From: an uncultured virus (IMG/VR IMGVR_UViG_3300035520_001855)
Lineage: Duplodnaviria; Heunggongvirae; Uroviricota; Caudoviricetes
Length of the DNA stretch: 64,000 nucleotides
Virus record (IMG/VR): IMGVR_UViG_3300035520_001855
Direction: 5' to 3' (one strand)
The position numbers were made by a program, and so were the translations under genes. Below the pieces are notes generated by a model. The model made no database searches, was not told where the DNA came from, and saw only the letters and a program-made list of their open reading frames with translations. Shown piece after piece: positions 1-64,000 of this stretch. The first letter of the stretch is position 1. Each line of letters starts with the position of its first letter.

Positions 1-361
1 CTATTTTAAACTTACTATTGCTATAGACAGTTTCAACCTTTTGCTCACTTGATACATCAATATCTGTTGAAGTGTTTAACAATTGTTCAATAGAGATGTC
101 AATATTTGCCTTATTGATTATAGTTAGTAAAGTATGATCAACATTAGGTTGACTTAAATAGTCTATGAGCATCTCAAGAACATGCTTACAATAAATACCG
201 TCCACATCTTGTGGTAAATTGTCAATTAACACATTTATAGATGCGAATTTCGTATCCGGTGCGTAATTTATCACACTCTTTAAATACTCATTCGTTCTTA
301 TGTCTATAGGCTCAGCAAGTATACCCTCTAAAGACTTTCTAATCTTCTTTGTGTCTATCAT
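1..361 (-). CDS. Hypothetical protein, partial (runs off window start)
   Basis: Not in ORF track. ATG at 361-359 overlaps the TGA of the NERD gene, AGGGAGG lies upstream, and the frame (MIDTKKIRKSLEGILAEP...) stays open to the window edge. Confidence 0.7.
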   Translation of the reverse strand, partial: MIDTKKIRKSLEGILAEPIDIRTNEYLKSVINYAPDTKFASINVLIDNLPQDVDGIYCKHVLEMLIDYLSQPNVDHTLLTIINKANIDISIEQLLNTSTDIDVSSEQKVETVYSNSKFKI

Positions 362-1104
362 TTTTTCTTCGCCTCCCTCTTTACATGTTCTATAAATAAA
401 GCATCTGATTCTTTATCCATTTCACTAATTATTGTTGCTAGCTTTTTTACATCCCAGACAACAGTTTTCATATTAGCAATTTTATTCAGATAATTTAGAA
501 TATTTTCAGAGCCAACTAATGGTATCATTTTCTTGAACTTCTCCTCTCTCAAATCGATCACACGTTTTATCTCATCCATGTAAAGCACAATTGAGAAAGG
601 TTTACCCTTTTTCAAGTCAACAATCGCTGGTCCTAAATAATATCTTAAATTGTCCATATGCATTAGATTTTGTTTATAAACATCTGTCACATGTCCAAAA
701 TCAGGCACTATTTTACATTCATCAATTAATTTGACTTTTCCTTTTCTATATTTACTTTCAAATAAAATAACTCTTGAAGGTGTAAACAGAGTTAAGTCTA
801 ACTCTGTTGTCTTTTCTTTTTTATGATCACGTCTTCTAAAAGTTAAGCCTTTTGACAGCACCCAAGGCAAATTTCTCTGCCGAGCGAATTCTCTAATTTG
901 TAATTCCAATAAAATTTCACAACACTCACCTCTTAAATTCATAGCCAATGAGTTAATATCAAACTCTTTAGTTTTTTTATTTGAGTCTTTTATTAAGTGA
1001 TTTATTGTATTTACAGCATAACTATATCCACTCTTATAATAAATTTGTAAGATGCGATTACGTAGATTTATCTTAAAATCAATAATTTGTTGATTTTCAT
1101 CCAA
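358..1104 (-). CDS. NERD-domain (PD-(D/E)xK) nuclease
   Basis: Motifs LRGECCE, TTELDLTLFTPSRVILFESKYRKG and YKQNLMH match the NERD pattern (GE...ID...E-x-K...QN..H). Confidence 0.75.
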   Translation of the reverse strand: MDENQQIIDFKINLRNRILQIYYKSGYSYAVNTINHLIKDSNKKTKEFDINSLAMNLRGECCEILLELQIREFARQRNLPWVLSKGLTFRRRDHKKEKTTELDLTLFTPSRVILFESKYRKGKVKLIDECKIVPDFGHVTDVYKQNLMHMDNLRYYLGPAIVDLKKGKPFSIVLYMDEIKRVIDLREEKFKKMIPLVGSENILNYLNKIANMKTVVWDVKKLATIISEMDKESDALFIEHVKREAKKK

Positions 1105-2863
1105 TCCTAATCACCTCTTCCTGCAACTTATTTATTTCAGTACTATCACCATTCTGTCTTTTAATTATTGCATCTAGTCTATTTGATGCAATGTTTAACT
1201 GTACCGAATCACTCACATATGTGCAAACAAATTCAACATTCTTGTGATTAAGAACAAATTGATTATATTTCACATTTGTGTCCAGAATAACTCTGAATAA
1301 CCCTGACTTTTCAAAATTCCAACCATTGTCGAGGGCTTGTCTAAATTTTAATAAAAAATTTTCTTTTGTGTTTTCACTTCGTAATAGATGAATCTCATAT
1401 ATACGATTCATACCATAAATTGATATGCAATATATGAATTCCTCCTGGTCCTCATATTCCAATAGAGCACCACGTATTAATGGGCGTATAGGCACATACT
1501 CTACATGTTCATTTTCATTTAGAATAATATTATTTAATACTGGTTTATATGTTGACTTATCCAACTCTCTTAGTAAATCAGCATTATCTTCTCCATAGTT
1601 ATAGCCTGCACTCCAATGCAGTTCAAGCGGTGCCCAATCATCAACTTGAATTTTTGAATATTCCTTGAACACATTAATATAAGGTATTAAAGTGTTGCGT
1701 ATACAAAAAACTGCTTCATCATGTCTGTTAAGCATTATAGTTATATGCTTGCTTGCAGGCTCATTAAAAACAGTTCTGCAGATGTGTTCAAATTCCCTAA
1801 AAAGATTCACTGCGAATAACTGCATAACATCAGCTGATGTTGCTTGTATTGGAGCATTTAAACAAGCTCTCACCTCATCTTTTTCTTCAGACAATTTGAT
1901 TATTTCTCTGCCAAAGTATGTGCGGACACTAAAACCTAATCGTGAATTTACATTTTGTTTTATAATATCTTTGTACTTTATATATTGTTCGTTAGTTGTT
2001 ATATAACTATATAAGTTCTTTGCTAAGTCTTGATTCAGCTCCTTTAAAGTCATATAAGATGCCCCATAAAATACAGATAATATCTTTTGTTTGTATTTAG
2101 GTCTTTCCTCTAAGAAAAGTTTCTCATTGAAGTCCTGTCCGGCATGATCTGCTGCTGTCATTGCCACAGCTTGATAATAATCACCACATTCATCTACATA
2201 TTTTCTAAGTTCAGTATCATTACTGTAGAACATATTGTACATTACACGTAAATCTATCTGACTAAAATCTGCCCACAATAAAAAATGATCTTTTGGTGCT
2301 GCTATTATTTCCTTATACTTATTTGGTAGATTTTGAAAACTATAGTCAGATGTGTAAATTCTTGATGTTGCTGCTTTGCTATAACGAAATGGCACTACAC
2401 CTAGAGGTGTGTCATAATTTGTTTTTACTCCAGTATCGTGTGTGAAATATCTACACGGTGATGCTTTAGAATAGATTGATTTTGTTTCCATGTAATGTTC
2501 TAGCATTTCCATGAACATTACACAGTAATTATTATCAACAACTCTTTTTCTTACATCTGCATCAAATGAATAAATAAGACCATTTTTTCCTTCTTTTAGA
2601 AAAACGTCTTCTGGTACACCTTCTGAATGTATTAAAAATGGGATAAGTTCACTTTTTGTGATTTCTGTAATTGGTGAATTTTGTGTCATTAGAATATATC
2701 GCCTAATCATTTTAGCCATACCACTTACAATCGCCTCGTCTGAATGAATTAAATAATCTAACCTATTTATATCAATAAATACATGTGGTTCGTTTGTCAT
2801 CATTGTCATATATTCCAAGTCAATTGCATTTATATCCACACTCTTACTATTTATCTTCAACAT
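1097..2863 (-). CDS. Family A DNA polymerase lacking a 3'-5' exonuclease domain
   Basis: Motifs SRIYTSDYSFQNLP, motif A WADFSQIDLR, motif B RPKYK...FYG, NAPIQATSAD and motif C NRHDEAVF. Start moved to ATG 2863, which has AAGGAGGTG upstream. Confidence 0.9.
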   Translation of the reverse strand: MLKINSKSVDINAIDLEYMTMMTNEPHVFIDINRLDYLIHSDEAIVSGMAKMIRRYILMTQNSPITEITKSELIPFLIHSEGVPEDVFLKEGKNGLIYSFDADVRKRVVDNNYCVMFMEMLEHYMETKSIYSKASPCRYFTHDTGVKTNYDTPLGVVPFRYSKAATSRIYTSDYSFQNLPNKYKEIIAAPKDHFLLWADFSQIDLRVMYNMFYSNDTELRKYVDECGDYYQAVAMTAADHAGQDFNEKLFLEERPKYKQKILSVFYGASYMTLKELNQDLAKNLYSYITTNEQYIKYKDIIKQNVNSRLGFSVRTYFGREIIKLSEEKDEVRACLNAPIQATSADVMQLFAVNLFREFEHICRTVFNEPASKHITIMLNRHDEAVFCIRNTLIPYINVFKEYSKIQVDDWAPLELHWSAGYNYGEDNADLLRELDKSTYKPVLNNIILNENEHVEYVPIRPLIRGALLEYEDQEEFIYCISIYGMNRIYEIHLLRSENTKENFLLKFRQALDNGWNFEKSGLFRVILDTNVKYNQFVLNHKNVEFVCTYVSDSVQLNIASNRLDAIIKRQNGDSTEINKLQEEVIRIG

Positions 2864-3527
2864 CCTTATCCACCTCCTTAATCTTAAAAGCAAATGAGGA
2901 TTCTCTCGCCAATTTTCTCATTTGATTTAAGTATCCTTGTACATTTGGAGTTTCATAATTTGGTGCTACTTCAAGAATAATAAAATCACGCTCTCTACGA
3001 ATTTTTCGTTGCAAAGTGGTTTTTATTATTATCATTTTTTCAATGATCCTATTACTTATTGAATTAAAAAGTTCAATATAGATATAATCATCATTAGTAA
3101 ACTTGTTAAATTTAAATATTCCTTTATTGTCTTTATATAAAACAGTTAATGATGTAGTATCAAAGTACTTACTAAATTCTGACAATAAGAAACTGTAGAA
3201 TTCTGCTCTATCATCAATGGTTGAATAGCACTTACCTACATCATTACAAGAAATACTTGATCGATTAAAATGGATAAAATCAGCCCAACTAAAATTTGTT
3301 ATTTCCTCTGATGTATACCCAAGTTTTTCCTTCAAGTGTTCAATAAAAGGTACCGAACTTTTACTGAATCTTATCTTTTTATCATCTAAAAATATATTTA
3401 CAGCTTCGGTGCTGTAAAATATTGAATTTTCAACTTTAATATCACCATGCAATGTTACAGTGAATGATGATTCTGTTAATCTTGCTAATTTTTTCAAAAG
3501 AAGAAGTTCTTGCTTATACAGTTTCAT
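2847..3527 (-). CDS. Hypothetical protein (possible highly decayed PolA-like remnant)
   Basis: Overlaps both neighbours. Weak resemblance of ELLLLKKLARL and RERDFIILEV to PolA pre-thumb and motif C regions. Confidence 0.6.
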   Translation of the reverse strand: MKLYKQELLLLKKLARLTESSFTVTLHGDIKVENSIFYSTEAVNIFLDDKKIRFSKSSVPFIEHLKEKLGYTSEEITNFSWADFIHFNRSSISCNDVGKCYSTIDDRAEFYSFLLSEFSKYFDTTSLTVLYKDNKGIFKFNKFTNDDYIYIELFNSISNRIIEKMIIIKTTLQRKIRRERDFIILEVAPNYETPNVQGYLNQMRKLARESSFAFKIKEVDKDVEDK

Positions 3528-4849: not shown

Positions 4850-7129
4850 TTACACTTTCAAGTACTTTTTAAAGTAAAAAGTACTATCTAGACTACCTTG
4901 GTATTCTGTGTACTTACAACATATACCTGAAGTATCGGAGAATTCTACTGCACCTTGCATTTCCAGATACTGTGATGGTCTGACAGTTAGTATGTGTTTA
5001 CATGCTGTCAATGTTTGCCTGCAATCTTTTGGTGCATCAAAAACTAAAATGAATGCTACTCCTACTAATGGACCATTTGCTAGAAGTTCATTAAATTCAG
5101 GAATTATTGAATCTCGTTTTGTTATACCATCATTCAGGTTTGGTGCAAACATCCAAAAGACTGTGAGAGCAAAGTCATTACTCTTTAAGTATTTTCCTGA
5201 TGCTTTGCTTTGTGTTTTTTCAAAAAATTTAGCTTTGTTTACTAAGTCAACTGCAAGGTTAACTTTGTTTATCAACAGATTATAACTATCTTCAACTCCA
5301 AGATTCTTAACTTCATCAACAGTTGTGAAATCACATATTTTTTCTAAAATATCCATATTTGGCTCTGGTATTTGATATAAAAATTCTTGAATGATAGCAT
5401 CTCCTGTTGTTGAAGCTAAAAATGCCATAAAGTCCCACACACTTGGTTCAAGATTGTCACCTTCACATTTTAAATTATATTTAAGAACTTGTACTCTTAA
5501 TCTCACAGCTGTTAAATACTTTCCAACTTCAAAATTACCTGTTAAATCCTTTGCATAATTATCTATGTAATCCGGCTCGAATAGCTCTGTATTATCTATG
5601 ATCATTCTGTGAACCGCTCTCACATTTGGATGTGCTCTGAAATTATCACCAACTAGATGGCATAAATACTTTATATCATCTATTTCAGTAGCATTTACAA
5701 ATAAGTTTGAGTTACGACCAGCATCCCAAATGAAGTATTCTTTAGTTGAACCACTATCAGAATAACGTGTACCATCACCAAGTAAGAATGGCATTATGGC
5801 ATTGATATTCTTCTTTTTTATAACTTTATCGGCTTTCTTTGTTATAACTGCCAGATCCTTGCTAAATTCTTTTACATTTGTTTGTGTGGTCTCATTGAAA
5901 GATGTGGGTGCCTCTGATATTTCTAAATCGTCTGCAGTATTTCTTACACGTTTTAAAATGTTCTGAAAATCTTGTTTCTGCTGGTCTGTCTTGTCATCGA
6001 TGAAAGCAACCTTGTATTCAATGTTGTTTGCTTTATCACCTGTTGCTCTATTTTGATTGACAATACAGTAGCCTATTTTCTTTGTGAGCTGGACTGCTGC
6101 ATCATTACCTATAATTGATTCGCTATTGTCAGTATTTGCACCAACACAAATACCAACCTTAAACTGTCCTAAAGTTGAACCAGGTAAAGCTCCACTAAAG
6201 TTCTGTGTTGTGAGAATTAAATGGTACCCGATAGCACGTCCGAGTTTTGCAATAGACTGAACATAACCTTCAGCTTGTGTACGTTCTCGTGCAGTTGCAT
6301 TCTCCGGTAACTGTGAATACTCATCAGTCACACAAAGAACTCTAGGTATGTACAAATCTAAATAGTTACGAAGACCCTCTAATGTATTTGCACCTGTTGT
6401 TGCTGCTATTGTATACAACTTTTTCATTTCTTCATCCATGAATTTTAATACAGAAATAAGATACGTTGAAGATCCTGTTATTGCTATGTTTCTTATTTGA
6501 GGGCACTTAAAATTCATATTATATCTTGCATATTCAAGCATCTTCATATCATTCATAAATAACTGTAATTCCCAAGGTGGGTACTCTGTCAATAATGCTG
6601 TTAACATAGCATTCATTACAACTGATTTACCTTCACCTGTATTACCACCTGCTAATGCATGAACTTGATTACCACCTAATTTAAATGGATAATTTTTGGA
6701 CCTGTCATTATTAACAAAACCAATTCGCAAATTTATACCCTTTAAAGTATCTCCCCACCAAATTGGTAATGGCTCATTAATAGTTAAAATCTGTTTTGGT
6801 TTTACAGCGTCCCTAATCATATCTCTCGTTGTTGCATCTTTTTCATCATCTGGTAAATCCGATGCTCTGACTTTCTTTATTTCTGAGTCAATTTTATTTA
6901 ATGCTTTTAAGATATCTTTAACTGGTGGTGCAACTCGTATTGTTCTAGGATAAGGCTTCTTATACAGTTTATTTGTACCCTGAAAATCCGAATTATCCAA
7001 CTGTCCGTTACGCATTAATTCTGATATAAAGTAAGTCAAATCCAGAGTTTTATCCAGATTTGACTTATATTGTTTAGACGCTAATATTGCAAGATTACGT
7101 ATAGCACTTCTATCGTATTCTATAAGCAA
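4850..7129 (-). CDS. FtsK/SpoIIIE-family ATPase, EssC/EccC-like
   Basis: HALAGGNTGEGKS (Walker A), PWELQLFMNDMK, VLCVTDEYSQL (Walker B), KLGRAIGYHLILTTQ. The C-terminal half looks like a second, degenerate ATPase domain (ELLANGPLVGVAFIL). Confidence 0.85.
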   Translation of the reverse strand: MLIEYDRSAIRNLAILASKQYKSNLDKTLDLTYFISELMRNGQLDNSDFQGTNKLYKKPYPRTIRVAPPVKDILKALNKIDSEIKKVRASDLPDDEKDATTRDMIRDAVKPKQILTINEPLPIWWGDTLKGINLRIGFVNNDRSKNYPFKLGGNQVHALAGGNTGEGKSVVMNAMLTALLTEYPPWELQLFMNDMKMLEYARYNMNFKCPQIRNIAITGSSTYLISVLKFMDEEMKKLYTIAATTGANTLEGLRNYLDLYIPRVLCVTDEYSQLPENATARERTQAEGYVQSIAKLGRAIGYHLILTTQNFSGALPGSTLGQFKVGICVGANTDNSESIIGNDAAVQLTKKIGYCIVNQNRATGDKANNIEYKVAFIDDKTDQQKQDFQNILKRVRNTADDLEISEAPTSFNETTQTNVKEFSKDLAVITKKADKVIKKKNINAIMPFLLGDGTRYSDSGSTKEYFIWDAGRNSNLFVNATEIDDIKYLCHLVGDNFRAHPNVRAVHRMIIDNTELFEPDYIDNYAKDLTGNFEVGKYLTAVRLRVQVLKYNLKCEGDNLEPSVWDFMAFLASTTGDAIIQEFLYQIPEPNMDILEKICDFTTVDEVKNLGVEDSYNLLINKVNLAVDLVNKAKFFEKTQSKASGKYLKSNDFALTVFWMFAPNLNDGITKRDSIIPEFNELLANGPLVGVAFILVFDAPKDCRQTLTACKHILTVRPSQYLEMQGAVEFSDTSGICCKYTEYQGSLDSTFYFKKYLKV

Positions 7130-9720: not shown

Positions 9721-9734
9721 CTGTAATCTCCTTT

Positions 9735-12193: not shown

Positions 12194-12205
12194 ACTTATC
12201 ACCCA

Positions 12206-13066: not shown

Positions 13067-13083
13067 TTTAATGCCTCCTTCTA

Positions 13084-17309: not shown

Positions 17310-17325
17310 ATTAATCTCTCCTTTC

Positions 17326-56080: not shown

Positions 56081-56974
56081 CTAGCTTAAGTTAAAGTCAG
56101 ATTCTTTATCAAAAAATTTATATGCATATTGTAACTGCAATTTATCAGTCATCTTGTTAACTACTAATCTCTGTGCAATTATACACTTTAAAGATGATCT
56201 TAACAATTCTTGTATGAATGTTCTCTCACCTAAATCAAAGGTTAAAACAATACGATTAATTGTTGATTCTATGCTTGAGGTGTGTAAGGTAGCTAACACT
56301 AAGTGTCCTGTTTCAGCACAAAGTAACGCTGCTTTTATTGTTTCTGGGTCACGCATTTCACCAACCATTATTATGTCAGGGTCTTGTCTGAGAGCTGCCT
56401 TTATTGCTATTGGAAAAGTCTCAAAGTCTGCACCTAACTCTCTTTGAGTAACAAGAGATGAACCTGATGATTGTATGAAATACTCTATAGGATCTTCTAA
56501 AGTGATTATGTTAGTTTCTTTCTGCCCTAACATGCTCATTATTGAAGCCAGTGTTGTTGACTTTCCGGAGTTTGTTGGTCCAGTAATTAAGACAAGTCCA
56601 TGATTTAAAGTATTTATTTTTTCAAATATTCCTTGTTCAAATCCCAGTTCTTTATAGTTGCCAACCTTATCTTTTAAATGTCTAAAAGTTATCTTTCTAC
56701 CACCATCACACTTAGCAATGTTTACTCTAAATCTACCTATTGGACATTCATATCTGAAATCAGCCATGTTATTATCAATAAAATTACCCATAACTTCAGC
56801 AGAAGGATGCATGTCACTAAATAATGTTTGAACGATTGCATCATCTAAAGGCAGTACATTTAAATTATGCATTCTGCCCTGCAATCTTATTTTAGGAATT
56901 TGATTTGACTGTATGTGTAAATCAGAACCTCCTGATTGTACAAGTTGTGATAAGTAGTCACCTATTTGTAACAC
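56081..56974 (-). CDS. pilT: PilT/PilU-family secretion ATPase, C-terminally short
   Basis: GSDLHI, GRFRVN, GPTNSGKSTTL, TLEDPIEY, QRELG, ALRQDPDIIMVGEMRD, AETGHLVLATLH. Confidence 0.9.
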   Translation of the reverse strand: MLQIGDYLSQLVQSGGSDLHIQSNQIPKIRLQGRMHNLNVLPLDDAIVQTLFSDMHPSAEVMGNFIDNNMADFRYECPIGRFRVNIAKCDGGRKITFRHLKDKVGNYKELGFEQGIFEKINTLNHGLVLITGPTNSGKSTTLASIMSMLGQKETNIITLEDPIEYFIQSSGSSLVTQRELGADFETFPIAIKAALRQDPDIIMVGEMRDPETIKAALLCAETGHLVLATLHTSSIESTINRIVLTFDLGERTFIQELLRSSLKCIIAQRLVVNKMTDKLQLQYAYKFFDKESDFNLS

Positions 56975-57569: not shown

Positions 57570-57845
57570 TTAATTAAACATTTCTTCGAAGGATAACTCC
57601 TCAATATCATCCTCTGTAATCTCTATTAACTGACCACCGCAATATGGACATGTATTATTCAAGGTTTCGGAATCATTCTCTTTATCGCTATTGTCTTTCT
57701 CACACTCGTCAAGACAGCCATCACAAATAATAGCTTCACAATCATTGCAAACATAAATAGATGTGCCCTCCTCAAGAAACTCTCCAATGCTTCCACCGCA
57801 TTCTTCACAATAAACATTATTCAATTCTTTTCTTACTAACTTCAT
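57570..57845 (-). CDS. Cys-rich Zn-finger protein
   Basis: Four CxxC pairs: CEEC, CNDC, CDGC, CPYC. Confidence 0.75.
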   Translation of the reverse strand: MKLVRKELNNVYCEECGGSIGEFLEEGTSIYVCNDCEAIICDGCLDECEKDNSDKENDSETLNNTCPYCGGQLIEITEDDIEELSFEEMFN

Positions 57846-58149
57846 TATTTTTCATTCCTTTCTGTATAAAACACATGATTTGAAATCTCGTATCGTTTTT
57901 ATTTAATATTAAATTATTTAAAAAATTAACACATTCATCTAATGTGAACATATCGGAGTTCGGTACTAACAGTAGTACCGAACTCTCCTTTGGTAGATTC
58001 TCTAAGAAATTCAAGAGCTTATCTTTCTCACCCAATTTCATTAATTTCCAATTGTTTGCATCTATTATAAATGCTGGTTCTTTGATAATCCCGTTTGTAT
58101 CAGAATCTATAATTTTTCCATCTCTGTGATAAAATTGCATTAGTATCAA
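57817..58149 (-). CDS. Hypothetical protein
   Basis: 110-aa ORF overlapping neighbours. Confidence 0.6.
   Translation of the reverse strand: MILMQFYHRDGKIIDSDTNGIIKEPAFIIDANNWKLMKLGEKDKLLNFLENLPKESSVLLLVPNSDMFTLDECVNFLNNLILNKNDTRFQIMCFIQKGMKNNEVSKKRIE
57956..57985. repeat. 13-bp perfect inverted repeat inside a CDS
   Basis: gagttcggtacta-acag-tagtaccgaactc. Confidence 0.8.
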
Positions 58150-58454
58150 CCAACTTTTCTTTTTGTGTTTAAACCTACAGCTGTGTACTCACTCATGCTT
58201 ATTGCTTTTAACTCTTTTTCCTCCTTTTCAGCATTTTTCAATGCTGCACGCTCTGTCAAATAATCATCTAAAATGCAAGCGTCTTTAAATGCAATGAGTG
58301 CTGATATCACTGTGCCTATGTTAAGTACAACCATAACCTTTAAATTTTGATCAAGTGATGTGAAACAATTACTAGCACCACACCAACCCATACCAGCTAT
58401 GAATAAAGCAGTGACACCAAACTTAACTATAAATCTTACTAAAACCTTTCTCAT
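58146..58454 (-). CDS. Small membrane protein
   Basis: Two hydrophobic segments; AGGAGGT RBS. Confidence 0.7.
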   Translation of the reverse strand: MRKVLVRFIVKFGVTALFIAGMGWCGASNCFTSLDQNLKVMVVLNIGTVISALIAFKDACILDDYLTERAALKNAEKEEKELKAISMSEYTAVGLNTKRKVG

Positions 58455-58633
58455 AATAATCTTACCTCCTGAATAAAAATAATTAATTGTACAATGGAGA
58501 TGTTTCTTTTCATCTTCACTACAATTGTATAAGTAAGATTATGTTAATTAATAAGATAATTTATGTTAAATATTTGGTATATACACTGCTTTTTTGGTTA
58601 TTAAATTGTGAATTTATTTTTGTTTTTGTGTTA

Positions 58634-59434
58634 TTATGTAAATAAATTTTTAAAGAAACCTGAACCATAACCCCAAATAACTCCACCAATTTCAGAGATT
58701 TTTAGAAGTATAATGTCAAATCCACCAGCTGCAAATCCAAGTCCATAGAGAACTAATGCAGCTATTGCTATCTTTCCTGCAAGTTTATAAATTTTATGTG
58801 GATGTGTTGCATAGTAGGTTATTGTTTTTCTAAGCTTTTTAATTGACCACCTAAAAAGTTTCTTTCCGGTTTTCCAAAGGAATGCACCAACTCTTGTAAG
58901 AACAAATAGTGCAGCCTGAATTATCCAAGCAGCTAATAGAATAAAAGGCTTAAGAATTGTTAAAGCATACACCAAGACCATAACAAAAGGAATGATTTTT
59001 TGTAGATTCTCACTATCACCTGAAGTAGTTTCTTCTTCGATGTCAATATCTTTCCCGTTAAAGTCAGCAAGTTTACGTGTTAAACCATACTTATTCAAAA
59101 GCTTATTTTGGAATCCCTTTATAACTCTAGAATCAATATAATTTGACTTAGAGATATTACATTTAGGACAAGATGGTCCTAAATTCCAAGATTTATTTGG
59201 GTTCCATAAAATACCTGCATACAACCTTGTTTTAGGTATTATATGGTCGACCTGCATTTCAGTATGTGGTACAAGTTTTCCACAGTACATACATCTATAC
59301 ATACGTACAGGTATTACTTGACCATTCACTATCTTTTTTTCGATTCTTGCAGGCTTATTATGCTTGTGAAATTCTGCTCTATAATCATCTGGCAGAATTT
59401 TATAATCCTTTCCTTCAACAACTTTAATTGCCAA
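58634..59434 (-). CDS. HNH endonuclease with C-terminal transmembrane segments
   Basis: CMYCG...VDHIIP...NLGPSCPKCNISK, then hydrophobic IIPFVMVLVYALTILKPFILLAAWII and IAIAALVLYGLGFAAGG. Confidence 0.85.
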   Translation of the reverse strand: MAIKVVEGKDYKILPDDYRAEFHKHNKPARIEKKIVNGQVIPVRMYRCMYCGKLVPHTEMQVDHIIPKTRLYAGILWNPNKSWNLGPSCPKCNISKSNYIDSRVIKGFQNKLLNKYGLTRKLADFNGKDIDIEEETTSGDSENLQKIIPFVMVLVYALTILKPFILLAAWIIQAALFVLTRVGAFLWKTGKKLFRWSIKKLRKTITYYATHPHKIYKLAGKIAIAALVLYGLGFAAGGFDIILLKISEIGGVIWGYGSGFFKNLFT

Positions 59435-59449
59435 CTAAATCCCTTCTTT

Positions 59450-60127
59450 CTATATGTGGAACATTTTAACTAATGACCAGTATTTATTTTTTATACCTTT
59501 TTCAATAGAAATGTCAGGGTACTTTTTTGTTGCGATATCATTTAAATCGTTGTCAGTTAAATGTATGTTGAATAATTCATATACAGCATCCTGAAATCCT
59601 CTTAAAAGATTTCCATTGATTCTTAATATACAAATTTCTTCCCCTAAAATCCTATTGGTTGCTCCTATATTTATTTCATAGTCTTGTGGATCAGCATTGA
59701 TAAGTTGATCCGATATGACTGTTATTTTCGTATTTACGTTCTTTAATAATGTTCTAAATAAAATCTGTGGCTGTTGCCACTGTGCTATCATATTGACAGA
59801 AATAAATCTTTTATCAATCACTTCAATTTTATGTCTTGAATTAAAATGAAAGTACTGTCCCCATTCCGAAAATTTTACAACTGTCTGCATCATATTTGTG
59901 CTGTCTGTTAAATAGATGACTGAATTTCTCAATGTGTTGTATGATGTTACAACTGAGTTACGTCTTCCGGCATCTAAAATCATAACATCTTTTTCTGTTA
60001 GTACCGCATCCTCTATACTGAAATCAATGATGTGTACTAACATATCGTCGAGTGTGATAAAGCAAACTGCTTCAATGTAATCCCCAAATTCTTTCTTGAA
60101 ATCACTTGACTTAATAATTGTTGGCAT
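59450..60127 (-). CDS. Hypothetical protein
   Basis: 225-aa ORF with GAGGTGA RBS. Confidence 0.7.
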   Translation of the reverse strand: MPTIIKSSDFKKEFGDYIEAVCFITLDDMLVHIIDFSIEDAVLTEKDVMILDAGRRNSVVTSYNTLRNSVIYLTDSTNMMQTVVKFSEWGQYFHFNSRHKIEVIDKRFISVNMIAQWQQPQILFRTLLKNVNTKITVISDQLINADPQDYEINIGATNRILGEEICILRINGNLLRGFQDAVYELFNIHLTDNDLNDIATKKYPDISIEKGIKNKYWSLVKMFHI

Positions 60128-60147
60128 TGTCTCACCTCTTCAAATAA

Positions 60148-60182
60148 TATAAAATAAGGGCTGCACTTTATTGGTGCAGCCC
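60148..60182 (-). terminator. Intrinsic terminator at the end of the T4SS operon
   Basis: gggctgcac/gtgcagccc stem (60158-60182) followed on the minus strand by TTATTTTAT. Confidence 0.75.
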
Positions 60183-60188
60183 AAACTG

Positions 60189-60659
60189 TTAATAACTCTC
60201 GTATACGTGTTTCTCGTACTTAGTTATTATGTTGTTTTCATCCATCTCAATATAAACTGAGAATGGATATGTTAATGGCTTGAATGTCTCCGAGCCTGTT
60301 ATCAGAATTTGATAACCTGTTGGTGTTGCATTACATATTACATGATCAACATTAAATACATAACCCTCAAGCTTTTCTGGAGGATCAAAACTTGGATACC
60401 TGTCACTAATTAAATTATTATAGATTTCATCTGTAACCATTAATTTTAGTTTATCTTTATCCATATGGTCTTGATCTTGATAAAGCATACATTCCTCTTT
60501 TAAAAAATTAACTGCTGTATCTCTTGCGACATTTTCCAGATTGTTTGTAGTCTGTATCGCTTCTAATGCCGATGGTTCACCTTTTAAGTGCTGAATTGCA
60601 GTAATTATGCAAACTGTTAAAATACAAGTTAAAATAGCTGTTAAGATTATTTTCTTCAT
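60189..60659 (-). CDS. Membrane-anchored/exported conjugation protein (possible VirB8/TcpC-like NTF2 fold)
   Basis: N-terminal MKK plus hydrophobic helix; ARDTAVNFL...LKLMVTDEIY pattern; follows the cell-wall hydrolase. Confidence 0.5.
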   Translation of the reverse strand: MKKIILTAILTCILTVCIITAIQHLKGEPSALEAIQTTNNLENVARDTAVNFLKEECMLYQDQDHMDKDKLKLMVTDEIYNNLISDRYPSFDPPEKLEGYVFNVDHVICNATPTGYQILITGSETFKPLTYPFSVYIEMDENNIITKYEKHVYESY

Positions 60660-60679: not shown

Positions 60680-62557
60680 TTAATTTTTTGGTAATGTATC
60701 ATATAATGCTTTTGGCATAGCCCAGCCATAATAGCCAGTTTGTCTCTTAAATCCAATACCATTTTCAGCTGCCGAATAATTGACTGTCTCTCCACCAGCC
60801 TCTACAATTTTACCATCACCAACGTAGAAAGATACATGATTTGGATCTCGATTATCTACAGTACCATTTCTATAGTATACAGGTGAACCTGATGATATTA
60901 ATCCTGCTCCAACTGGAACTTTTGACCAATCTATATCTAGTGTTGGTTTATCTGCAAATCGTACAATAACCATATCACCACAACTATTTGCTAAAAGTTC
61001 ATCGCAATAATTCTGACTGTTTAAATCCCATTTTCCAGACATCCTCCATAATCGTCTCACAAATGCATAACATGATATATTAGAGTTTTGACTCTCACCA
61101 TTAACAATCCACTTTTCGTTATTTTTATTACTAATTGCTACTTGAACTGCCTTCTGTTGCCATTCTGTTAGATTTGATGTATCGATATCAATGTTGATGT
61201 TGGATGATGAGGATTCTGGGTTAGAGCCTGTTTCGGTTGCACCGAGCTGCTTTGCCATATCTATTAAACCATCGTAAACATATTTACCACCATTATAGGC
61301 AACAAATACAAATTGAGTTGATTGCCAGATTCCATTTGCTACTGATGTGGCGTAATCTGCTGTGCCACCACCCTGAAAATTTGATGTTACTCTAGTTGTT
61401 GATGATGCTAGACTCCTTAATTTTGTGTTTAAATTCTCTCTACTTACTGCTAAATTTGACCATTGGTCCAATTTACCATATTGCTTATAAATGTCAACAT
61501 ACATAGACGGTATAAACGTTTTTACGGAGTCTGTGTATCCATTATAATACCCACAAGATGCAACATTTCTTAATATAGTTTTTTGATAATCATCCATACC
61601 ATTTGTATCTGCCCATTCCAACATATCTTTGGTCCAGTGCGAATCATTACCAAGCTTATCTGAGTATGTATTACTATACCTTCTAGCTGCAGAATATGCT
61701 GCATCAGAAAAACAAAACATAGATGGTCTTTGTAATCCATTAATTGTCTTTGTGCAATTATCAGATGTTTTTACACGATCATCATCAGATAAATTTGGAT
61801 CCTCTAAAGATGATATAAAAGCGTATCCCCTATACTCACCATCTGCTTCCCAAGCGCTTCTTTTATGTTGGAAAGGACCACCACAATCATATGCGTTGTA
61901 TGTTACTGGCCAGGTTGTTGTGAGCACACTGCCGGAGCAACCTATGTTGGCTGTAGTTTCTGAATACCATATACCTAAAAGTTCTTGTGGTGAAATTGTT
62001 ATTTCTGGTCTAGCGCAGATTTCCTGAACAATCATCAATATCTCTGCACGTTGTTGAACTGTACCATTTTGCCATGTTCCTGATGGTAATGATACTGTTG
62101 TACTTGAATTTATTTTTGATAAATCAATTGTGTATTGTGTTCCATCATATGATACAGCTCCACCACTTGATGTAGATGAACTACCACCACTTGAAGTTGT
62201 GTAACGTAATTCATCTGGGTTAATGTCGCCTTCCTCAATTAAAGTTGCAGTTGTACCTCCTAAAAAAGCCAACTCAATTGCATTTGCATATGTCGAAATA
62301 CCTAAAGCTACACCAATCCAGATAAAAAGAAAAATGGTCAAAAATAAACTAGCTAAAAATTTTGCTATTGCAGACTGCTTGGACCTAAAAGTAGCAACCA
62401 TCTCTATACAATAAAATATAGGATAAAATATCACTTTCAAAAAGATTGATCCAGCAAGTATTACATTACTTTTAAAACCTCTCTGTTTCAATTTTGATTC
62501 TGGTTTGGATTTAGACCTAGATTTATAATCTTTCGATCTTTTCGCCATGAGCATCAC
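60680..62557 (-). CDS. Bifunctional peptidoglycan hydrolase (lysozyme-like plus NlpC/P60), VirB1/CwlT-like
   Basis: N-terminal TM segments, LLGIWYSET...GGPFQ glycosidase-like motifs, C-terminal SCYAFV...HVSFYVGDGKIVEA; directly after VirB4. Confidence 0.8.
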   Translation of the reverse strand: MMLMAKRSKDYKSRSKSKPESKLKQRGFKSNVILAGSIFLKVIFYPIFYCIEMVATFRSKQSAIAKFLASLFLTIFLFIWIGVALGISTYANAIELAFLGGTTATLIEEGDINPDELRYTTSSGGSSSTSSGGAVSYDGTQYTIDLSKINSSTTVSLPSGTWQNGTVQQRAEILMIVQEICARPEITISPQELLGIWYSETTANIGCSGSVLTTTWPVTYNAYDCGGPFQHKRSAWEADGEYRGYAFISSLEDPNLSDDDRVKTSDNCTKTINGLQRPSMFCFSDAAYSAARRYSNTYSDKLGNDSHWTKDMLEWADTNGMDDYQKTILRNVASCGYYNGYTDSVKTFIPSMYVDIYKQYGKLDQWSNLAVSRENLNTKLRSLASSTTRVTSNFQGGGTADYATSVANGIWQSTQFVFVAYNGGKYVYDGLIDMAKQLGATETGSNPESSSSNINIDIDTSNLTEWQQKAVQVAISNKNNEKWIVNGESQNSNISCYAFVRRLWRMSGKWDLNSQNYCDELLANSCGDMVIVRFADKPTLDIDWSKVPVGAGLISSGSPVYYRNGTVDNRDPNHVSFYVGDGKIVEAGGETVNYSAAENGIGFKRQTGYYGWAMPKALYDTLPKN

Positions 62558-64000
62558 GCTCCATCAGCTTTAGCATCAGAACGTGTGCTAAATATAGGAC
62601 TTTCTAAATATGCCTTAGGAAGCTCACAATGGAATACAGATGTTGTTCTCTTATGTTTCATCAAGAAGCATCTGTTAAGATTGATGAGTGATTCAATAAG
62701 TGGGCGACACTTTGCCAAGTCTGGATTTTCAAACATGTACTCAAGAGCCCTAAGGTCTTTTGTCTTACCAATGATGAAATATTCTGAGTTATTGATAAGT
62801 GCTGATATATTCTGATTAAGCTTACCGGGGTCATTAATAATACCAATACAAGTACCATTACATTTACGTATACCTGTCCAAATGGTATTTGTCCAATCAG
62901 ATGCACCATCATGTGTCAGGTATCTTTGTAATTCCTCATAAAGCATTATAAAAGATTGATTTTTTGACCTTCGATAACGTGCTAACTCAGAGTCAAGTAA
63001 CATCTTGGTTAACTGTTTTACACGTGTATCAATTGATTCTGAACCAGTTACAGATGATGTTGAGTCTGCACCAAATCGTGTGATGATTATCTTTGCATCC
63101 TTCAACTCGTTAAACGAGATCGGCTGCTTAAACATGTACGAGTACACACCATTAAAGTAAAGTTTTAATGTGCTATATAATTCTGTAATGTCATCACCAT
63201 AAGTTGATATATACTTCTTTGATGCAACCCTGTTCTCAAGTTTTGGTAATAAATCTTTGATTGTCAGATTCTCAGAGTTCTTCCAAGTTGCTTGATTTGC
63301 TAAATCAACTCCTCGACCTTGTGCTGCTTCAACAATTATTTCTGAAAGTACATTCTTTTGCTCTGCGGATAATGGTCTACCCATCAAAACTGAAGCTAAT
63401 TGATAGACACCATTGATAGCATTTTGTACAATACCTTTGTCAAGTTCCGGGTCACCAGTTATGTTTGTTAAACGTAATGGTTCATAATACTTACCATCAT
63501 CACCTTTGAAGTCAAGATATACTGCACCATAGGTATCACCAAATGGTGTATATTCATTACCTTCGTAGTCAGTAATGTAAATATAATCTCCATTAGCTAA
63601 AAACTGCTCAAGGCAGGTTTTTATCAAACAAGACTTACCAGAACCAGTCTCACCAAGCACAAGTATGTTTGTTCCCGACTGGTCCTTTGGGTGATTATCG
63701 ATTTTTACTAACTGTCTATTTTTAATGTCATTACCAAGGACAATATTACCATCATCAAGTCTACCTTGTGTTAGCGGACTAAATGATGCTGTAATAGATG
63801 TAGTTAAGACACGATTGCCTACTAAAGTTCTAGCAAGCTTTGTTACTTCGTGTCTAAATGGTGAAATCAGCTGGATGAAATCATACAGGTATAACTTGAC
63901 TGGTGCTAAAGTTATACCTGTTCTTTCAAATACCTCACCAACAGATTCAAATAAAATATTTGAATACTTTAAATCCTCTTTAGGTATTCTGACACGAAAA
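62554..64000 (-). CDS. VirB4/TraE-like T4SS ATPase, partial (runs off window end)
   Basis: Frame is open from 63660 to the window end (…GNIVLGND…TNILVLGETGSGKS); ITDYEGNEY, YEELQRY, GIRK motifs. Confidence 0.85.
   Translation of the reverse strand, partial: FRVRIPKEDLKYSNILFESVGEVFERTGITLAPVKLYLYDFIQLISPFRHEVTKLARTLVGNRVLTTSITASFSPLTQGRLDDGNIVLGNDIKNRQLVKIDNHPKDQSGTNILVLGETGSGKSCLIKTCLEQFLANGDYIYITDYEGNEYTPFGDTYGAVYLDFKGDDGKYYEPLRLTNITGDPELDKGIVQNAINGVYQLASVLMGRPLSAEQKNVLSEIIVEAAQGRGVDLANQATWKNSENLTIKDLLPKLENRVASKKYISTYGDDITELYSTLKLYFNGVYSYMFKQPISFNELKDAKIIITRFGADSTSSVTGSESIDTRVKQLTKMLLDSELARYRRSKNQSFIMLYEELQRYLTHDGASDWTNTIWTGIRKCNGTCIGIINDPGKLNQNISALINNSEYFIIGKTKDLRALEYMFENPDLAKCRPLIESLINLNRCFLMKHKRTTSVFHCELPKAYLESPIFSTRSDAKADGA

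What the first reader, a model, noticed from the sequence alone, without database searches (positions are those of the whole stretch)
1..64000. Giant mobile element combining its own RNA polymerase and replisome with conjugation (T4SS) and T7SS-like machinery, but no visible virion genes
Seen: 64 kb of single-strand, tightly packed genes, roughly half of them unrecognisable. They include a complete RNAP, Gre factor, PolA, DnaB, DnaC-like loader, ligase and resolvase, next to VirB4, a CwlT-like hydrolase, PilT and EssC-like ATPases. Known: self-encoded multisubunit-type RNAPs with autonomous replisomes are typical of jumbo phages, whereas VirB4 plus CwlT marks Gram-positive conjugative elements, which normally use host RNAP. 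Inference: this is a transcriptionally autonomous conjugative megaplasmid (or a phage-derived element that spreads by conjugation) of a Firmicutes host. I do not know of a characterised element with this combination.
Basis: partly seen in the sequence, partly recalled or inferred. Interest (0 to 1): 0.9.

Follow-up and report, generated by a model that had tools for sequence, protein, structure and literature searches.

The report
Megaplasmid-like element encoding its own RNAP
This is one third of a roughly 184-kb DNA element from a gut bacterium that looks like a distant cousin of a known self-transferring Bacillus plasmid but also carries its own cell-type RNA polymerase, which I could not find described for any bacterial plasmid.

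Summary
All 57 ORFs lie on the minus strand, coding density is 98.6%, and GC is 31%. A fused beta-beta' RNAP with an intact NADFDGD site is present, together with two family-A polymerases, DnaB-like, a primase zinc ribbon, NAD-ligase, DnaK-like, a weak Gre-like factor, a PilT-family ATPase, an FtsK-family ATPase, a VirB4-like ATPase and, next to it, a CwlT-like wall hydrolase. No capsid, portal or terminase is detectable in the window.

Not confirmed: a "complete" RNAP (no alpha, omega or sigma found), T7SS, and a DnaC-like loader or resolvase (weak hints only).

New findings:
- The exact proteins sit on a 184,105-bp contig that I could not fetch.
- RNAP and the VirB4-like gene co-occur on six further contigs of 110-181 kb, so this is not a misassembly.
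- VirB4-like and PolA have their best public relatives on Bacillus megaplasmids, not phages.
- Nine gene families are shared with pXO16, a proven conjugative 350-kb plasmid; eight of them are collinear.
- pXO16 and three relatives lack RNAP.

Best reading (0.58): a pXO16-lineage conjugative megaplasmid that gained its own transcription module. A jumbo phage with virion genes outside the window (0.25) is not excluded.

The parts
62554..64000 (-). VirB4-like T4SS ATPase; C-terminal 481 of 655 aa (full length = P0135; the N-terminus lies beyond the window end)
   Evidence: NCBIfam conju_CD1110 4.9e-19 and VirB4_plasma 3.1e-17. Profile A2 best PDB hit is 4AG5 VirB4, 2.2e-12. 25.6% identity over 85% of its length to the pXO16 ORF; pair-HMM 3.9e-40. 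71% identical in relatives whose RNAP is only 42% identical.
60680..62557 (-). CwlT-like cell-wall hydrolase: N-terminal transmembrane helices, a lysozyme/lytic-transglycosylase-like middle domain, and a C-terminal NlpC/P60 endopeptidase
   Evidence: TM segments. 3 of 4 homologues carry PF00877, and the fourth has an M23 peptidase instead. Profile A3 against PDB: 9UBF 1.5e-21, 4HPE 1e-20, 4FDY 1.8e-16. AF2 middle domain pLDDT 60-88. VIA: MltF Z 8.0, rmsd 3.6, 155 aligned; MltC 7.0; MltE 6.3; Slt70 6.3. Sits on the same contigs as VirB4-like (22600, 6776, 4447).
57570..60659 (-). Small proteins downstream of the hydrolase: 156 aa with an N-terminal hydrophobic anchor, 225 aa, an HNH nuclease with C-terminal TM segments (58634-59434), a 102-aa two-TM protein, a 110-aa protein and a 91-aa zinc ribbon
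   Evidence: Hydropathy; HNH 2.1e-7; no other family hit.
56081..56974 (-). PilT-family hexameric ATPase, 297 aa
   Evidence: T2SSE 1.4e-48. TIGR01420 9.1e-80, 268 bits against a cut-off of 319. 40-42% identity over 91% of its length to annotated PilT. No prepilin motif seen in neighbouring ORFs by eye.
49572..50144 (-). Gre-factor-like protein, 190 aa (N-terminal coiled coil with an acidic tip)
   Evidence: GreA NF001263 4.9e-8, below cut-off. PDB 4WQT 0.029, aligning GDLSEN with GDLREN. Motif at residue 37.
50141..50860 (-). Zinc-ribbon plus P-loop protein, 239 aa, shared with pXO16 and G001
   Evidence: Pair-HMM 5.3e-5 at Z=1000; DnaC-like PHROG only E 0.21.
46507..47889 (-). SNF2/DEAD-type helicase
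   Evidence: ResIII 7.4e-14, DEAD 3.5e-13; pair-HMM with pXO16/G001 3.7e-19.
44896..46503 (-). DnaB-like replicative helicase
   Evidence: phrog_19 3.7e-11; pair-HMM with the pXO16/G001 DnaB 3.8e-11.
42265..44034 (-). Hsp70/DnaK-like chaperone, 589 aa
   Evidence: HSP70 3.7e-63; DnaK NF001413 1.6e-63 over residues 4-565.
41759..42268 (-). DnaG-type CHC2 zinc-ribbon protein (primase part)
   Evidence: PF01807 7.7e-11; pair-HMM 1.3e-3.
39020..40225 (-). NAD-dependent DNA ligase, adenylation part, 401 aa
   Evidence: phrog_3869 1.8e-31; PF01653 8.8e-8; pair-HMM 2.7e-7.
30509..38212 (-). Fused beta-beta' multisubunit-type RNA polymerase, 2567 aa
   Evidence: Pfam. NADFDGDQM, the GDK..HG.KG beta motif and a Cx6Cx2C cluster are invariant in 7 of 7. 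About 25% identity to cellular RNAPs. Forms a clade with P0001-P0006, support 99.
26583..30494 (-). Two orphan ORFs (987 and 303 aa) between RNAP and PolA; candidate RNAP or replisome accessory proteins (speculative)
   Evidence: The 987-aa ORF has only 2 representatives among 1.84 billion: itself and one at 34% identity. No family hit.
22798..26607 (-). Family-A DNA polymerase with 3'-5' exonuclease, 1269 aa
   Evidence: PF00476 2.6e-47, PF01612 9.8e-14. Best plasmid hits 176-181 bits, on pXO16-size and 215-kb Bacillus plasmids; best phage hit 111 bits. Pair-HMM 4.6e-55.
21727..22752 (-). 341-aa protein conserved in pXO16 and G001; weak likeness to the C-terminal part of LigA
   Evidence: Pair-HMM 8.2e-7; TIGR00575 residues 394-551, E 0.0035.
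7132..21737 (-). Block of 12 ORFs, 11 of them of unknown function (862, 608, 286, 392, 430, 330, 93, 169, 119, 298 and 1054 aa), interrupted by a DnaQ-like exonuclease (11555-12202)
   Evidence: No Pfam, PHROG or NCBIfam family apart from the exonuclease (5.9e-12). ESM Atlas models have pLDDT 0.30-0.34 with no usable hit.
4850..7129 (-). FtsK/SpoIIIE-family ATPase, 759 aa (candidate coupling protein or DNA translocase)
   Evidence: PF01580 1.3e-14. PDB: YukB/EssC 3.2e-10, FtsK 4.8e-9, 'DNA translocase coupling protein' 1.9e-7. Only a generic match to the pXO16 FtsK (E 0.003).
358..2893 (-). Second PolA-like polymerase (598 aa) and a NERD nuclease (248 aa)
   Evidence: PF00476 3.8e-22; NERD 2.2e-6.
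51034..51909 (-). UvdE-like endonuclease
   Evidence: PF03851 1.1e-9.

Best explanation
The window is about one third of an extrachromosomal element of at least 184 kb. Its host is probably an uncultured, low-GC Bacillota (Firmicutes) bacterium of an animal gut.

The element belongs to a small uncultured clade with contigs of 110-184 kb. Its backbone is shared, in the same order, with pXO16 of Bacillus thuringiensis. pXO16 is a 350-kb plasmid with all genes on one strand that transfers itself through an unusual 'tip' type IV secretion system. The shared backbone is: a VirB4-like ATPase with a wall hydrolase, then SNF2 helicase, DnaB, a primase zinc ribbon, NAD-ligase and a family-A polymerase, plus an FtsK-type ATPase.

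Proposed working:
1. The element replicates with its own PolA/DnaB/primase/ligase set. The genes are shown; their use is inferred.
2. It moves between cells by conjugation. The hydrolase opens the wall, and the VirB4-like and FtsK-type ATPases energise DNA export. The genes are shown; transfer is inferred from pXO16.
3. Unlike pXO16, it transcribes its one-directional gene array, at least in part, with its own fused beta-beta' RNA polymerase, helped by a Gre-like cleavage factor. The catalytic motifs are shown intact. Activity, promoter recognition and independence from the host are inferred.
4. DnaK-like and PilT-like proteins are further clade-specific additions of unknown role.
For: Real element, not a chimera:
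- Orientation, GC and skew are uniform.
- The exact RNAP, DnaK, 1054-aa, PilT-cluster and VirB4-like proteins are recorded on one 184,105-bp contig.
- RNAP relatives and VirB4-like relatives share six contig lengths: 155251, 164491, 181156, 110597, 157778 and 144599.

Conjugation genes:
- VirB4-like profile against PDB VirB4 4AG5, 2e-12.
- The adjacent hydrolase best matches Tn916-type conjugative hydrolases and has a lytic-transglycosylase-like middle domain.
- VirB4-like is the best-conserved known gene: 71% against 42% for RNAP on the same relatives.

Plasmid kinship rather than phage kinship:
- VirB4-like hits 40 plasmid records, 19 of them over at least 80% of its length and mostly Bacillus megaplasmids. 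It hits 1 phage record, over 16% of its length.
- PolA scores 176-181 bits on Bacillus megaplasmids against 111 bits for the best phage.

pXO16 link:
- 9 families are shared with pXO16/G001 pair profiles.
- 8 of them are collinear, with 2 of 28 pair inversions (35 of 40320 permutations do as well).
- pXO16 has the same trio of a 645-aa VirB4-like protein, a 710-aa protein with a C-terminal NlpC/P60 domain, and a 776-aa FtsK.
- Reviews state that pXO16 is conjugative, that all its CDS share one orientation, that its tip locus holds two ATPases and a hydrolase, and that its relaxase and oriT are unknown (passages of PMC6199540; section 16 of PMC9673590).

No virion genes in the complete relative:
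- G001 (225 kb, 55-bp end overlap, 58 proteins shared with pXO16): 0 of 195 ORFs of 110 aa or more hit a capsid, portal or terminase PHROG.

RNAP looks functional:
- Catalytic motifs are invariant in 7 of 7.

Host:
- GGAGG ribosome sites and 31% GC.
- Short contigs 100% identical to the window occur in two gut RNA libraries from two studies.
Against: - About 120 kb of the element was not seen. Capsid, portal and terminase genes could lie there.
- No relaxase, VirB6-like, VirB8-like or clear coupling protein is in the window.
- The FtsK-type gene is 55 kb from VirB4 and matches the pXO16 FtsK only generically.
- Only 9 of 57 ORFs have detectable pXO16/G001 counterparts, at 21-29% identity where measured. 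Most of these are replication genes that large phages also carry, so the kinship could be of modules rather than of the whole element.
- Several features are phage-like: a multisubunit RNAP, 98.6% coding density, HNH and NERD nucleases, and 40 of 57 orphan ORFs.
- pXO16 itself has been suspected of a 'phage-like nature' (PMC6199540 passage).
- IMG/VR files G001 as a virus.
- No alpha, omega or sigma was found, so the RNAP may depend on host factors or serve another role.
- pXO16, G001 and two further Bacillus megaplasmids have no RNAP (0 of 4 with PF00623; the control rang in 14 of 14).
Confidence: 0.58

Rival explanations
1. It is a jumbo phage, or a phage-plasmid, of a Bacillota host. Its virion and packaging genes lie in the unseen ~120 kb or are too divergent to recognise. 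The RNAP serves host-independent transcription as in phiKZ/AR9-type phages. The VirB4-like, FtsK-like and PilT-like ATPases and the hydrolase would then be co-opted for DNA packaging, entry or exit.
For: - Multisubunit RNAPs with their own replisome are known from jumbo phages and mReC phages (passages of PMC7481178; listing and abstract of PMC7598289).
- Coding density is 98.6% on one strand.
- 40 of 57 ORFs are orphans, and HNH, NERD and UvdE nucleases are present.
- Contig sizes cluster tightly at 145-184 kb, and one 313-kb contig is about twice 157 kb.
- VirB4-like is conserved like a packaging ATPase.
- IMG/VR lists the distant relative G001 as viral.
Against: - No capsid, portal, terminase or tail family in 57 window ORFs, even at lax E.
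- None in 195 of 195 ORFs of the complete relative G001.
- VirB4-like and PolA are nearer to Bacillus megaplasmids than to any of 50,697 phage records.
- The clade is absent from IMG/VR: exact-word scan, RNAP scan, and a VirB4-family scan that found only G001.
- The hydrolase is of the conjugative-transposon type and has membrane anchors.
- Known RNAP-bearing phages had recognisable capsid and terminase genes (PMC7481178 passage).
Confidence: 0.25
2. It is an integrated element (an ICE or genomic island) or a non-transmissible secondary replicon. The T4SS genes would be relics, and the RNAP a divergent paralogue used by the host.
For: The ends of the element were not seen. No relaxase or partition gene is in the window.
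Against: - VirB4-like is under strong conservation: 71% against 42% for RNAP.
- Independent assemblies give similar total lengths of 145-184 kb.
- The relative G001 closes on itself with a 55-bp overlap.
- No host housekeeping genes appear in 64 kb.
Confidence: 0.1
3. It is part of the chromosome of a very reduced, fast-evolving cellular symbiont. The RNAP, DnaK, GreA, PolA, DnaB, ligase and FtsK would then be its housekeeping genes.
For: The recognisable genes are mostly of housekeeping types.
Against: - No tRNA, rRNA, ribosomal-protein or metabolic gene in 64 kb.
- 40 of 57 ORFs are orphans.
- Relatives sit on contigs of only 110-184 kb.
- The backbone is shared with plasmids.
Confidence: 0.03
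4. It is an assembly chimera that joins a phage-like replication and transcription module to a conjugative module.
For: The window comes from a metagenomic contig. The modules come from different worlds.
Against: - The same pairing occurs on six other contigs from other assemblies.
- Composition and strand are uniform.
- Proven plasmids such as pXO16 show the same module order.
Confidence: 0.01

Closest known systems
pXO16 (pBTHD789-1, NC_018516.1) of Bacillus thuringiensis sv. israelensis and its relatives (G001, a 225-kb IMG/VR record; a 215-kb B. velezensis plasmid)
   Same: - Low GC (33-34%) and nearly all genes on one strand: 423 of 446 ORFs in pXO16, 226 of 232 in G001.
- Most genes are orphans.
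- A VirB4-like ATPase of about 650 aa, a hydrolase with a C-terminal NlpC/P60 domain, and an FtsK-type ATPase.
- Own PolA, DnaB, primase zinc ribbon, NAD-ligase and SNF2 helicase, in the same order.
   Different: - Identity is only 21-29% where measured, and only 9 of 57 window ORFs are shared.
- The element is about half the size.
- The hydrolase lies downstream, not upstream, of VirB4, and FtsK is displaced by 55 kb.
- pXO16, G001 and the two other Bacillus megaplasmids have no RNAP domain (0 of 4).
- pXO16 and G001 also gave no match to the window's DnaK-like, Gre-like or PilT-like genes.
Gram-positive conjugative T4SS of the Tn916 / ICEBs1 / pCW3 type
   Same: A VirB4-family ATPase sits next to a membrane-anchored bifunctional wall hydrolase (glycosidase-like plus NlpC/P60), and an FtsK-family ATPase is a possible coupling protein.
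   Different: VirB4-like is short (655 aa) and far below the curated cut-offs. No relaxase, VirB6-like or VirB8-like gene is seen in the window. A PilT-family ATPase is present, which these systems do not have (recalled, not tested).
Multisubunit RNAPs of jumbo phages (phiKZ/AR9 type) and of mReC phages
   Same: A divergent cell-type beta/beta' enzyme on a mobile genome beside its own replisome, with no alpha subunit found (PMC7481178 passages).
   Different: Here beta and beta' are one polypeptide. The enzyme is not closer to phage RNAPs than to cellular ones (about 25-31% to either). The mReC contigs carried recognisable capsid, terminase, portal and tail genes; this window carries none.
Giant plasmid-like elements of gut and oral Bacillota: Inocles (PMC12340149) and Hodors (PMC12934698)
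   Same: Large, mostly orphan, T4SS-bearing extrachromosomal elements known from metagenomes. Inocles carry replisome parts and a sigma factor (passages).
   Different: 'RNA polymerase' occurs 0 times in either main text. These elements are larger than 300 kb. No sequence comparison was made here.
Cytoplasmic linear killer plasmids of yeasts (pGKL2 type), recalled and not tested
   Same: Plasmids that encode their own reduced beta/beta'-like RNA polymerase and DNA polymerase (recalled).
   Different: They are eukaryotic, linear, protein-primed and about 13 kb, and they do not conjugate.

Membership tests
pXO16-type (tip-type T4SS) conjugative megaplasmids | VirB4-like ATPase homologous to that of pXO16 | tested here: met
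   phmmer 5e-31; pair-HMM 3.9e-40; tblastn 25.6% identity over 85% of its length.
pXO16-type (tip-type T4SS) conjugative megaplasmids | [quoted passage not shown] | tested here: inconclusive
   Both domain types are present. The hydrolase matches the pXO16 710-aa protein only over the Cys..His motif (hhalign probability 58%). The FtsK match is generic (E 0.003) and the gene is 55 kb away. The tip-locus coordinates in pXO16 are my inference; the review gives none.
pXO16-type (tip-type T4SS) conjugative megaplasmids | All genes in one orientation, highly coding, few database homologues | tested here: met
   57 of 57 ORFs on one strand, 98.6% coding, 40 of 57 orphans. pXO16 has 423 of 446 on one strand.
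pXO16-type (tip-type T4SS) conjugative megaplasmids | Shared collinear backbone | tested here: met
   8 shared families with 2 of 28 pair inversions against both pXO16 and G001.
pXO16-type (tip-type T4SS) conjugative megaplasmids | Demonstrated self-transfer; large polytopic membrane protein upstream of VirB4 | not testable with these tools
   The region upstream of VirB4 lies beyond window position 64000, and there is no culture.
Gram-positive conjugative T4SS | Relaxase, oriT, VirB6-like and VirB8-like components | tested here: inconclusive
   No relaxase or VirB6/VirB8 family hit among 57 window ORFs. They could lie outside the window. They are also unidentified in pXO16.
CwlT-like bifunctional conjugative hydrolase | Membrane anchor, glycosidase domain and NlpC/P60 endopeptidase | tested here: met
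   TM segments. NlpC/P60 profile matches of 1e-20 to 1.8e-16 to 4HPE and 4FDY. The glycosidase fold is moderate only: MltF Z 8.0, rmsd 3.6, 155 aligned, with seven more lytic transglycosylase or g-lysozyme rows over model residues 154-432. Foldseek found nothing.
Bacterial-type multisubunit RNA polymerase core | Beta catalytic domain, beta' NADFDGD site, beta' zinc cluster | tested here: met
Bacterial-type multisubunit RNA polymerase core | Alpha dimer, omega, and a sigma factor for promoter recognition | tested here: inconclusive
   No RpoA, RpoZ or sigma family hit in the window. They may be orphans, lie outside the window, or be borrowed from the host.
Tailed jumbo phage (Caudoviricetes) | HK97-fold capsid protein, portal, large terminase, tail genes | tested here: inconclusive
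   0 hits in 57 window ORFs, but about 120 kb is unseen and 40 ORFs are orphans.
Type VII secretion system (Firmicutes type) | EssC with FHA domains and three ATPase domains, plus WXG100 substrates and EssA/EssB/EsaA | tested here: not met
   One FtsK domain only. EssC TIGR03928 scores 54.9 bits against a cut-off of 778. No WXG100 or Ess family hit.
PilT retraction ATPase of type IV pili | PilT-family ATPase together with pilins, a platform protein and an assembly ATPase | tested here: inconclusive
   The ATPase is met at the family level, though below the cut-off and about 70 aa shorter at the C-terminus. No pilin, PilC or PilB family was found in the window.

The most novel reading that the evidence does not exclude
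This is the first lineage of bacterial conjugative plasmids that carries its own multisubunit RNA polymerase core, with a Gre-like factor and a chaperone. It would be a plasmid that transcribes and replicates itself largely independently of its host. That would place pXO16-like megaplasmids on a continuum with jumbo phages: either phage-derived elements that swapped virions for a T4SS, or plasmids that are ancestors or donors of phage replication and transcription modules.
Probability: 0.5. Interest if true: 0.9.

Novelty: new variant of a known kind. Interest (0 to 1): 0.8.

Why it matters
Bacterial plasmids are generally taken to use the host's RNA polymerase. Self-encoded multisubunit RNAPs have been a hallmark of jumbo phages and giant viruses.

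A conserved clade of 145-184-kb T4SS-bearing elements with a fused beta-beta' RNAP would blur that line. It would offer a route to host-independent gene expression after transfer, and perhaps to a broad host range or escape from host control. It would also give a compact, single-polypeptide bacterial-type RNAP for biochemistry.

The finding also ties the long-enigmatic pXO16 ('350 kb of terra incognita') to a wider family that extends into gut microbiomes. And it shows that at least one IMG/VR 'virus' with terminal repeats is a pXO16-like plasmid.

Tried and rejected
Reaching the rest of the element:
- No whole genome is held.
- An exact 42-base word of the window is absent from IMG/VR and from the GTDB genome contigs.
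It returned only cellular or unrelated RNAPs. tblastn of 57 window proteins against 160 loci gave RNAP hits only.
- So the 184-kb contig and its relatives were never seen.

Earlier scan notes: nothing found.

Orphan ORFs:
- ESM Atlas gave low-confidence models (pLDDT 0.34 and 0.30) and no usable hit.
- The 987-aa ORF has one relative only, so no alignment was deep enough to fold.

Hydrolase:
- The single sequence found nothing in PDB sequences.
- Foldseek on the AF2 model found nothing at E <= 0.001.
- The NlpC/P60 part of the model is below pLDDT 50.

Hidden RNAP in pXO16: the 2402-aa pXO16 and 2389-aa G001 proteins have no DFDGD-type motif and no profile match.

Negative scans:
- Sigma-70-like promoters: 107 found against 112.7 expected. 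Terminators: 8 against 5.6.
- No repeats of note. No Rfam family. Only generic domain hits in PADLOC.

Sequencing runs:
- Only two RNA libraries hold small shares (0.15 and 0.12).
- The laid contigs are 150-400 nt at depth 2-8. They show presence, not transcription. Uncovered parts mean nothing.

Fused-RNAP group around P0052: tblastn against phages gave only host-like rpoBC stretches inside phage-labelled records.

Hodor and Inocle papers: no RNAP.

Full report
**What is in the window.**
- All 57 non-overlapping ORFs of 40 aa or more lie on the minus strand.
- Only ten gaps are 25 bp or longer (892 bp in all), so 98.6% of the sequence codes.
- GC is 0.29-0.36, and GC skew is negative in every 2-kb bin.
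- Most ORFs are preceded by GGAGG-like ribosome sites. Stop codons are TAA 27, TGA 21 and TAG 8, so the standard bacterial code applies.
- There is no tRNA, no Rfam family and no notable repeat.

**Family assignments (Pfam, PHROGs, NCBIfam).** In transcription order:
- VirB4-like ATPase, cut by the window end (62554 to beyond 64000).
- A 625-aa membrane-anchored protein.
- An HNH nuclease.
- A PilT-family ATPase (9e-80).
- A UvdE-like nuclease.
- A Gre-like protein (5e-8, below the curated cut-off).
- An SNF2/DEAD helicase.
- A DnaB-like helicase (phrog_19 3.7e-11).
- Hsp70/DnaK (3.7e-63).
- A DnaG-type zinc ribbon.
- The NAD-ligase adenylation part.
- A 2567-aa fused beta-beta' RNA polymerase.
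- A 1269-aa PolA with exonuclease.
- A DnaQ-like exonuclease.
- An FtsK/SpoIIIE ATPase.
- A second PolA-like protein.
- A NERD nuclease.

With the hydrolase (below), 17 of 57 ORFs have a family at E <= 1e-5 and 40 do not. Relaxed scans (E up to 2 in Pfam, 0.5 in PHROGs) added only hints: RuvC-like 0.18, DnaC-like 0.21, NlpC/P60 0.018. No capsid, portal, terminase, tail, relaxase, sigma, alpha or WXG100 family appeared.

**The RNA polymerase.**
- It is about 25-31% identical to cellular RNAPs and to the few phage entries it hits.
- Six clusters of close relatives exist, all unnamed, at 42, 42, 42, 31, 28 and 29% identity.
- In the alignment of the seven, NADFDGDQM, the beta GDK..HG.KG motif and a Cx6Cx2C cluster are invariant.
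- In a FastTree of 38 fused RNAPs the seven form one clade (support 99). That clade is sister to two further unnamed proteins and separate from the cellular fused enzymes of the Helicobacter and Wolbachia type.
- The enzyme therefore looks functional and old in this lineage. Only the beta-beta' core is shown.

**Not a chimera, and its size.**
- Exact look-ups place the window's RNAP, DnaK, the 1054-aa ORF, members of the PilT and 639-aa clusters, and the full-length 655-aa VirB4-like protein on a 184,105-bp contig.
- The VirB4-like relatives (71% identical) sit on contigs of 155,251, 164,491, 181,156, 110,597 and 157,778 bp. These are the same lengths recorded for the 42%-identical RNAPs.
- A 56% VirB4-like relative shares the 144,599-bp length with the 31% RNAP.
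This is an inference, but an unlikely coincidence six times over.
- The RNAP plus VirB4 pairing is therefore conserved. The T4SS ATPase is much better conserved than the RNAP.

**The conjugation-type genes.**
- A profile of 14 VirB4-like proteins best matches the solved VirB4 domain 4AG5 (2.2e-12). It scores far above HerA, VirB11 or coupling proteins.
- The neighbouring 625-aa protein has four homologues. Three carry NlpC/P60, and one carries an M23 peptidase instead.
- The profile of that protein family best matches the wall hydrolases of Tn916-like conjugative transposons: 9UBF 1.5e-21, 4HPE 1e-20, 4FDY 1.8e-16.
- An AlphaFold model (5-sequence alignment, mean pLDDT 55) is usable only for residues 130-437.
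- Foldseek found nothing with that model.
- The exhaustive VIA search put lytic transglycosylases and a g-type lysozyme on top for residues 154-432: MltF Z 8.0, rmsd 3.6, 155 aligned; MltC 7.0; MltE 6.3; Slt70 6.3. These Z values are middling, but the rows agree with each other.
- The CwlT-like reading (anchor, glycosidase, endopeptidase) is therefore supported.
- The hydrolase and VirB4-like share contigs in three assemblies.
- The FtsK-type ATPase matches EssC/YukB, FtsK and a 'DNA translocase coupling protein' about equally. It cannot be called T7SS.
- The PilT-like ATPase is 40-42% identical to genuine PilT. It has no pilin or platform partner in the window.

**Plasmid or phage kin.**
- tblastn of the VirB4-like protein found 1 of 50,697 phage records, covering 16% of the query.
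- The same search found 40 of 72,556 plasmid records, 19 of them covering at least 80% of the query and 25 of them from Bacillus.
- PolA scores 176-181 bits on Bacillus megaplasmids against 111 bits for the best phage.
- The top plasmids are ten records of about 349.6 kb from B. thuringiensis. One of them, pBTHD789-1, is stated to be the sequence of pXO16 (PMC6199540 passage).

**The pXO16 link.** What the reviews say about pXO16:
- It is a proven conjugative plasmid.
- It is highly coding, and all its CDS share one orientation.
- It has few database homologues, and a 'phage-like nature' has been suspected.
- Its 25-kb tip locus holds two ATPases and a wall hydrolase.
- Its relaxase and oriT are unknown (PMC6199540 passages; PMC9673590 passages and section 16).

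What I found:
- I fetched pXO16 whole. 423 of its 446 ORFs lie on one strand and its GC is 33%.
- I also fetched the only IMG/VR relative of the VirB4 family, G001. It is 225,290 bp, 226 of its 232 ORFs lie on one strand, its GC is 34%, and its 'terminal repeat' is an exact 55 bp.
- G001 shares 58 proteins with pXO16, in order. It is a pXO16-like plasmid filed as a virus.
- Profiles of G001-pXO16 pairs find nine window proteins at Z=1000: PolA 4.6e-55, VirB4-like 3.9e-40, SNF2 3.7e-19, DnaB 3.8e-11, ligase 2.7e-7, the 341-aa ORF 8.2e-7, the zinc-ribbon P-loop ORF 5.3e-5, the primase ribbon 1.3e-3 and FtsK 3e-3.
- Eight of the nine are collinear in all three elements, with 2 of 28 pair inversions. 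Only 35 of 40,320 orders do as well. FtsK is displaced.
- pXO16 also has a 710-aa protein with a weak C-terminal NlpC/P60 domain near its VirB4-like gene.
- None of pXO16, G001, a 215-kb B. velezensis plasmid or a 144-kb B. subtilis plasmid has an RNAP beta' domain, although all four carry the VirB4-like gene. The result is 0 of 4, and the control rang in 14 of 14 genomes.
- All 195 G001 ORFs of 110 aa or more were scanned against PHROGs. None hit a capsid, portal or terminase family. The few 'tail' or 'endolysin' labels fall on lysozyme or peptidase domains.

**Reading.**
- The best-supported picture is a pXO16-lineage, T4SS-bearing megaplasmid of a gut Bacillota bacterium. It has acquired and kept a fused RNAP core, a Gre-like factor, DnaK and PilT.
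- The genes, their motifs, their conservation and the kinship are shown.
- Replication by the element's own PolA set, conjugative transfer and self-transcription are inferred.
- The main rival is a jumbo phage or phage-plasmid whose virion genes lie in the roughly 120 kb I could not reach. In its favour are the RNAP itself, the very high coding density and the many orphans.
- I put these two readings at 0.58 and 0.25.

**Habitat.** Two gut metatranscriptome libraries from two studies hold 150-400-nt contigs identical to parts of the PolA, 987-aa, RNAP and 172-aa genes. This shows presence in animal gut samples. It does not prove transcription.

**Literature.** Five full-text searches turned up no bacterial plasmid with a multisubunit RNAP core.
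- Read as passages: Hodor (PMC12934698), Inocle (PMC12340149), the jumbo-phage review (PMC7824862), mReC (PMC7481178) and the two Bacillus reviews.
- The primary pXO16 papers (Makart 2015, 2018) were seen only as citations.
- Supplements were not opened.

Noticed in passing
P0009-P0013, P0018, P0021, P0044, P0050, P0052, P0061, P0074, P0084, P0091-P0093: A second, larger radiation of divergent fused beta-beta' RNAPs. Some clusters have 553-816 member sequences, and the longest contigs are 132-187 kb. In the tree it groups apart from both the window clade and the cellular fused RNAPs. P0052 has no real phage relative in INPHARED. These may be further unknown elements with their own RNAP.
   Followed up: partly
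L161 / G001 (IMG/VR record, 225,290 bp): This record is filed as a complete virus with direct terminal repeats. The repeat is an exact 55 bp, which is an assembly overlap. 58 of its proteins match pXO16 in order, and 0 of 195 ORFs hit a virion family. It is a pXO16-like megaplasmid, not a demonstrable virus.
   Followed up: yes
window 39020-40225 and 21727-22752: The NAD-ligase seems split. A 401-aa ORF covers LigA positions 16-371. A 341-aa ORF 16 kb downstream weakly matches LigA positions 394-551 (E 0.0035). This second ORF is conserved in pXO16 and G001.
   Followed up: partly
window 56081-56974: The PilT-like ATPase is 40-42% identical to proteobacterial PilT, whereas the element's other recognisable proteins are about 21-30% identical to anything known. 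This suggests a much more recent capture. It lacks about 70 C-terminal residues of the family model.
   Followed up: partly
window 58634-59434: An HNH nuclease domain (residues 48-98) is fused to a C-terminal half with three predicted transmembrane segments. This is an unusual architecture.
   Followed up: no
P0175: One relative's RNAP lies on a 313,485-bp contig, about twice the 157-158 kb of its sister contigs. It is possibly a dimer or concatemer assembly of a circular genome.
   Followed up: no
window 27531-30494: The 987-aa ORF directly after the RNAP has only one other representative (34% identity) among 1.84 billion cluster representatives.
   Followed up: partly
L193 (NZ_CP032858.1, B. 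subtilis 143.7-kb plasmid): Its VirB4-like gene is followed directly by an M23 peptidase and later by a 1127-aa FtsK protein and ParB. This is the same hydrolase-swap seen in one relative of the window's hydrolase (P0190).
   Followed up: no
window 3976-4042 and 60128-60188: Two of the ten intergenic gaps hold strong GC-rich hairpins followed by T runs, on the coding strand. They are likely intrinsic terminators inside the otherwise continuous gene array.
   Followed up: no
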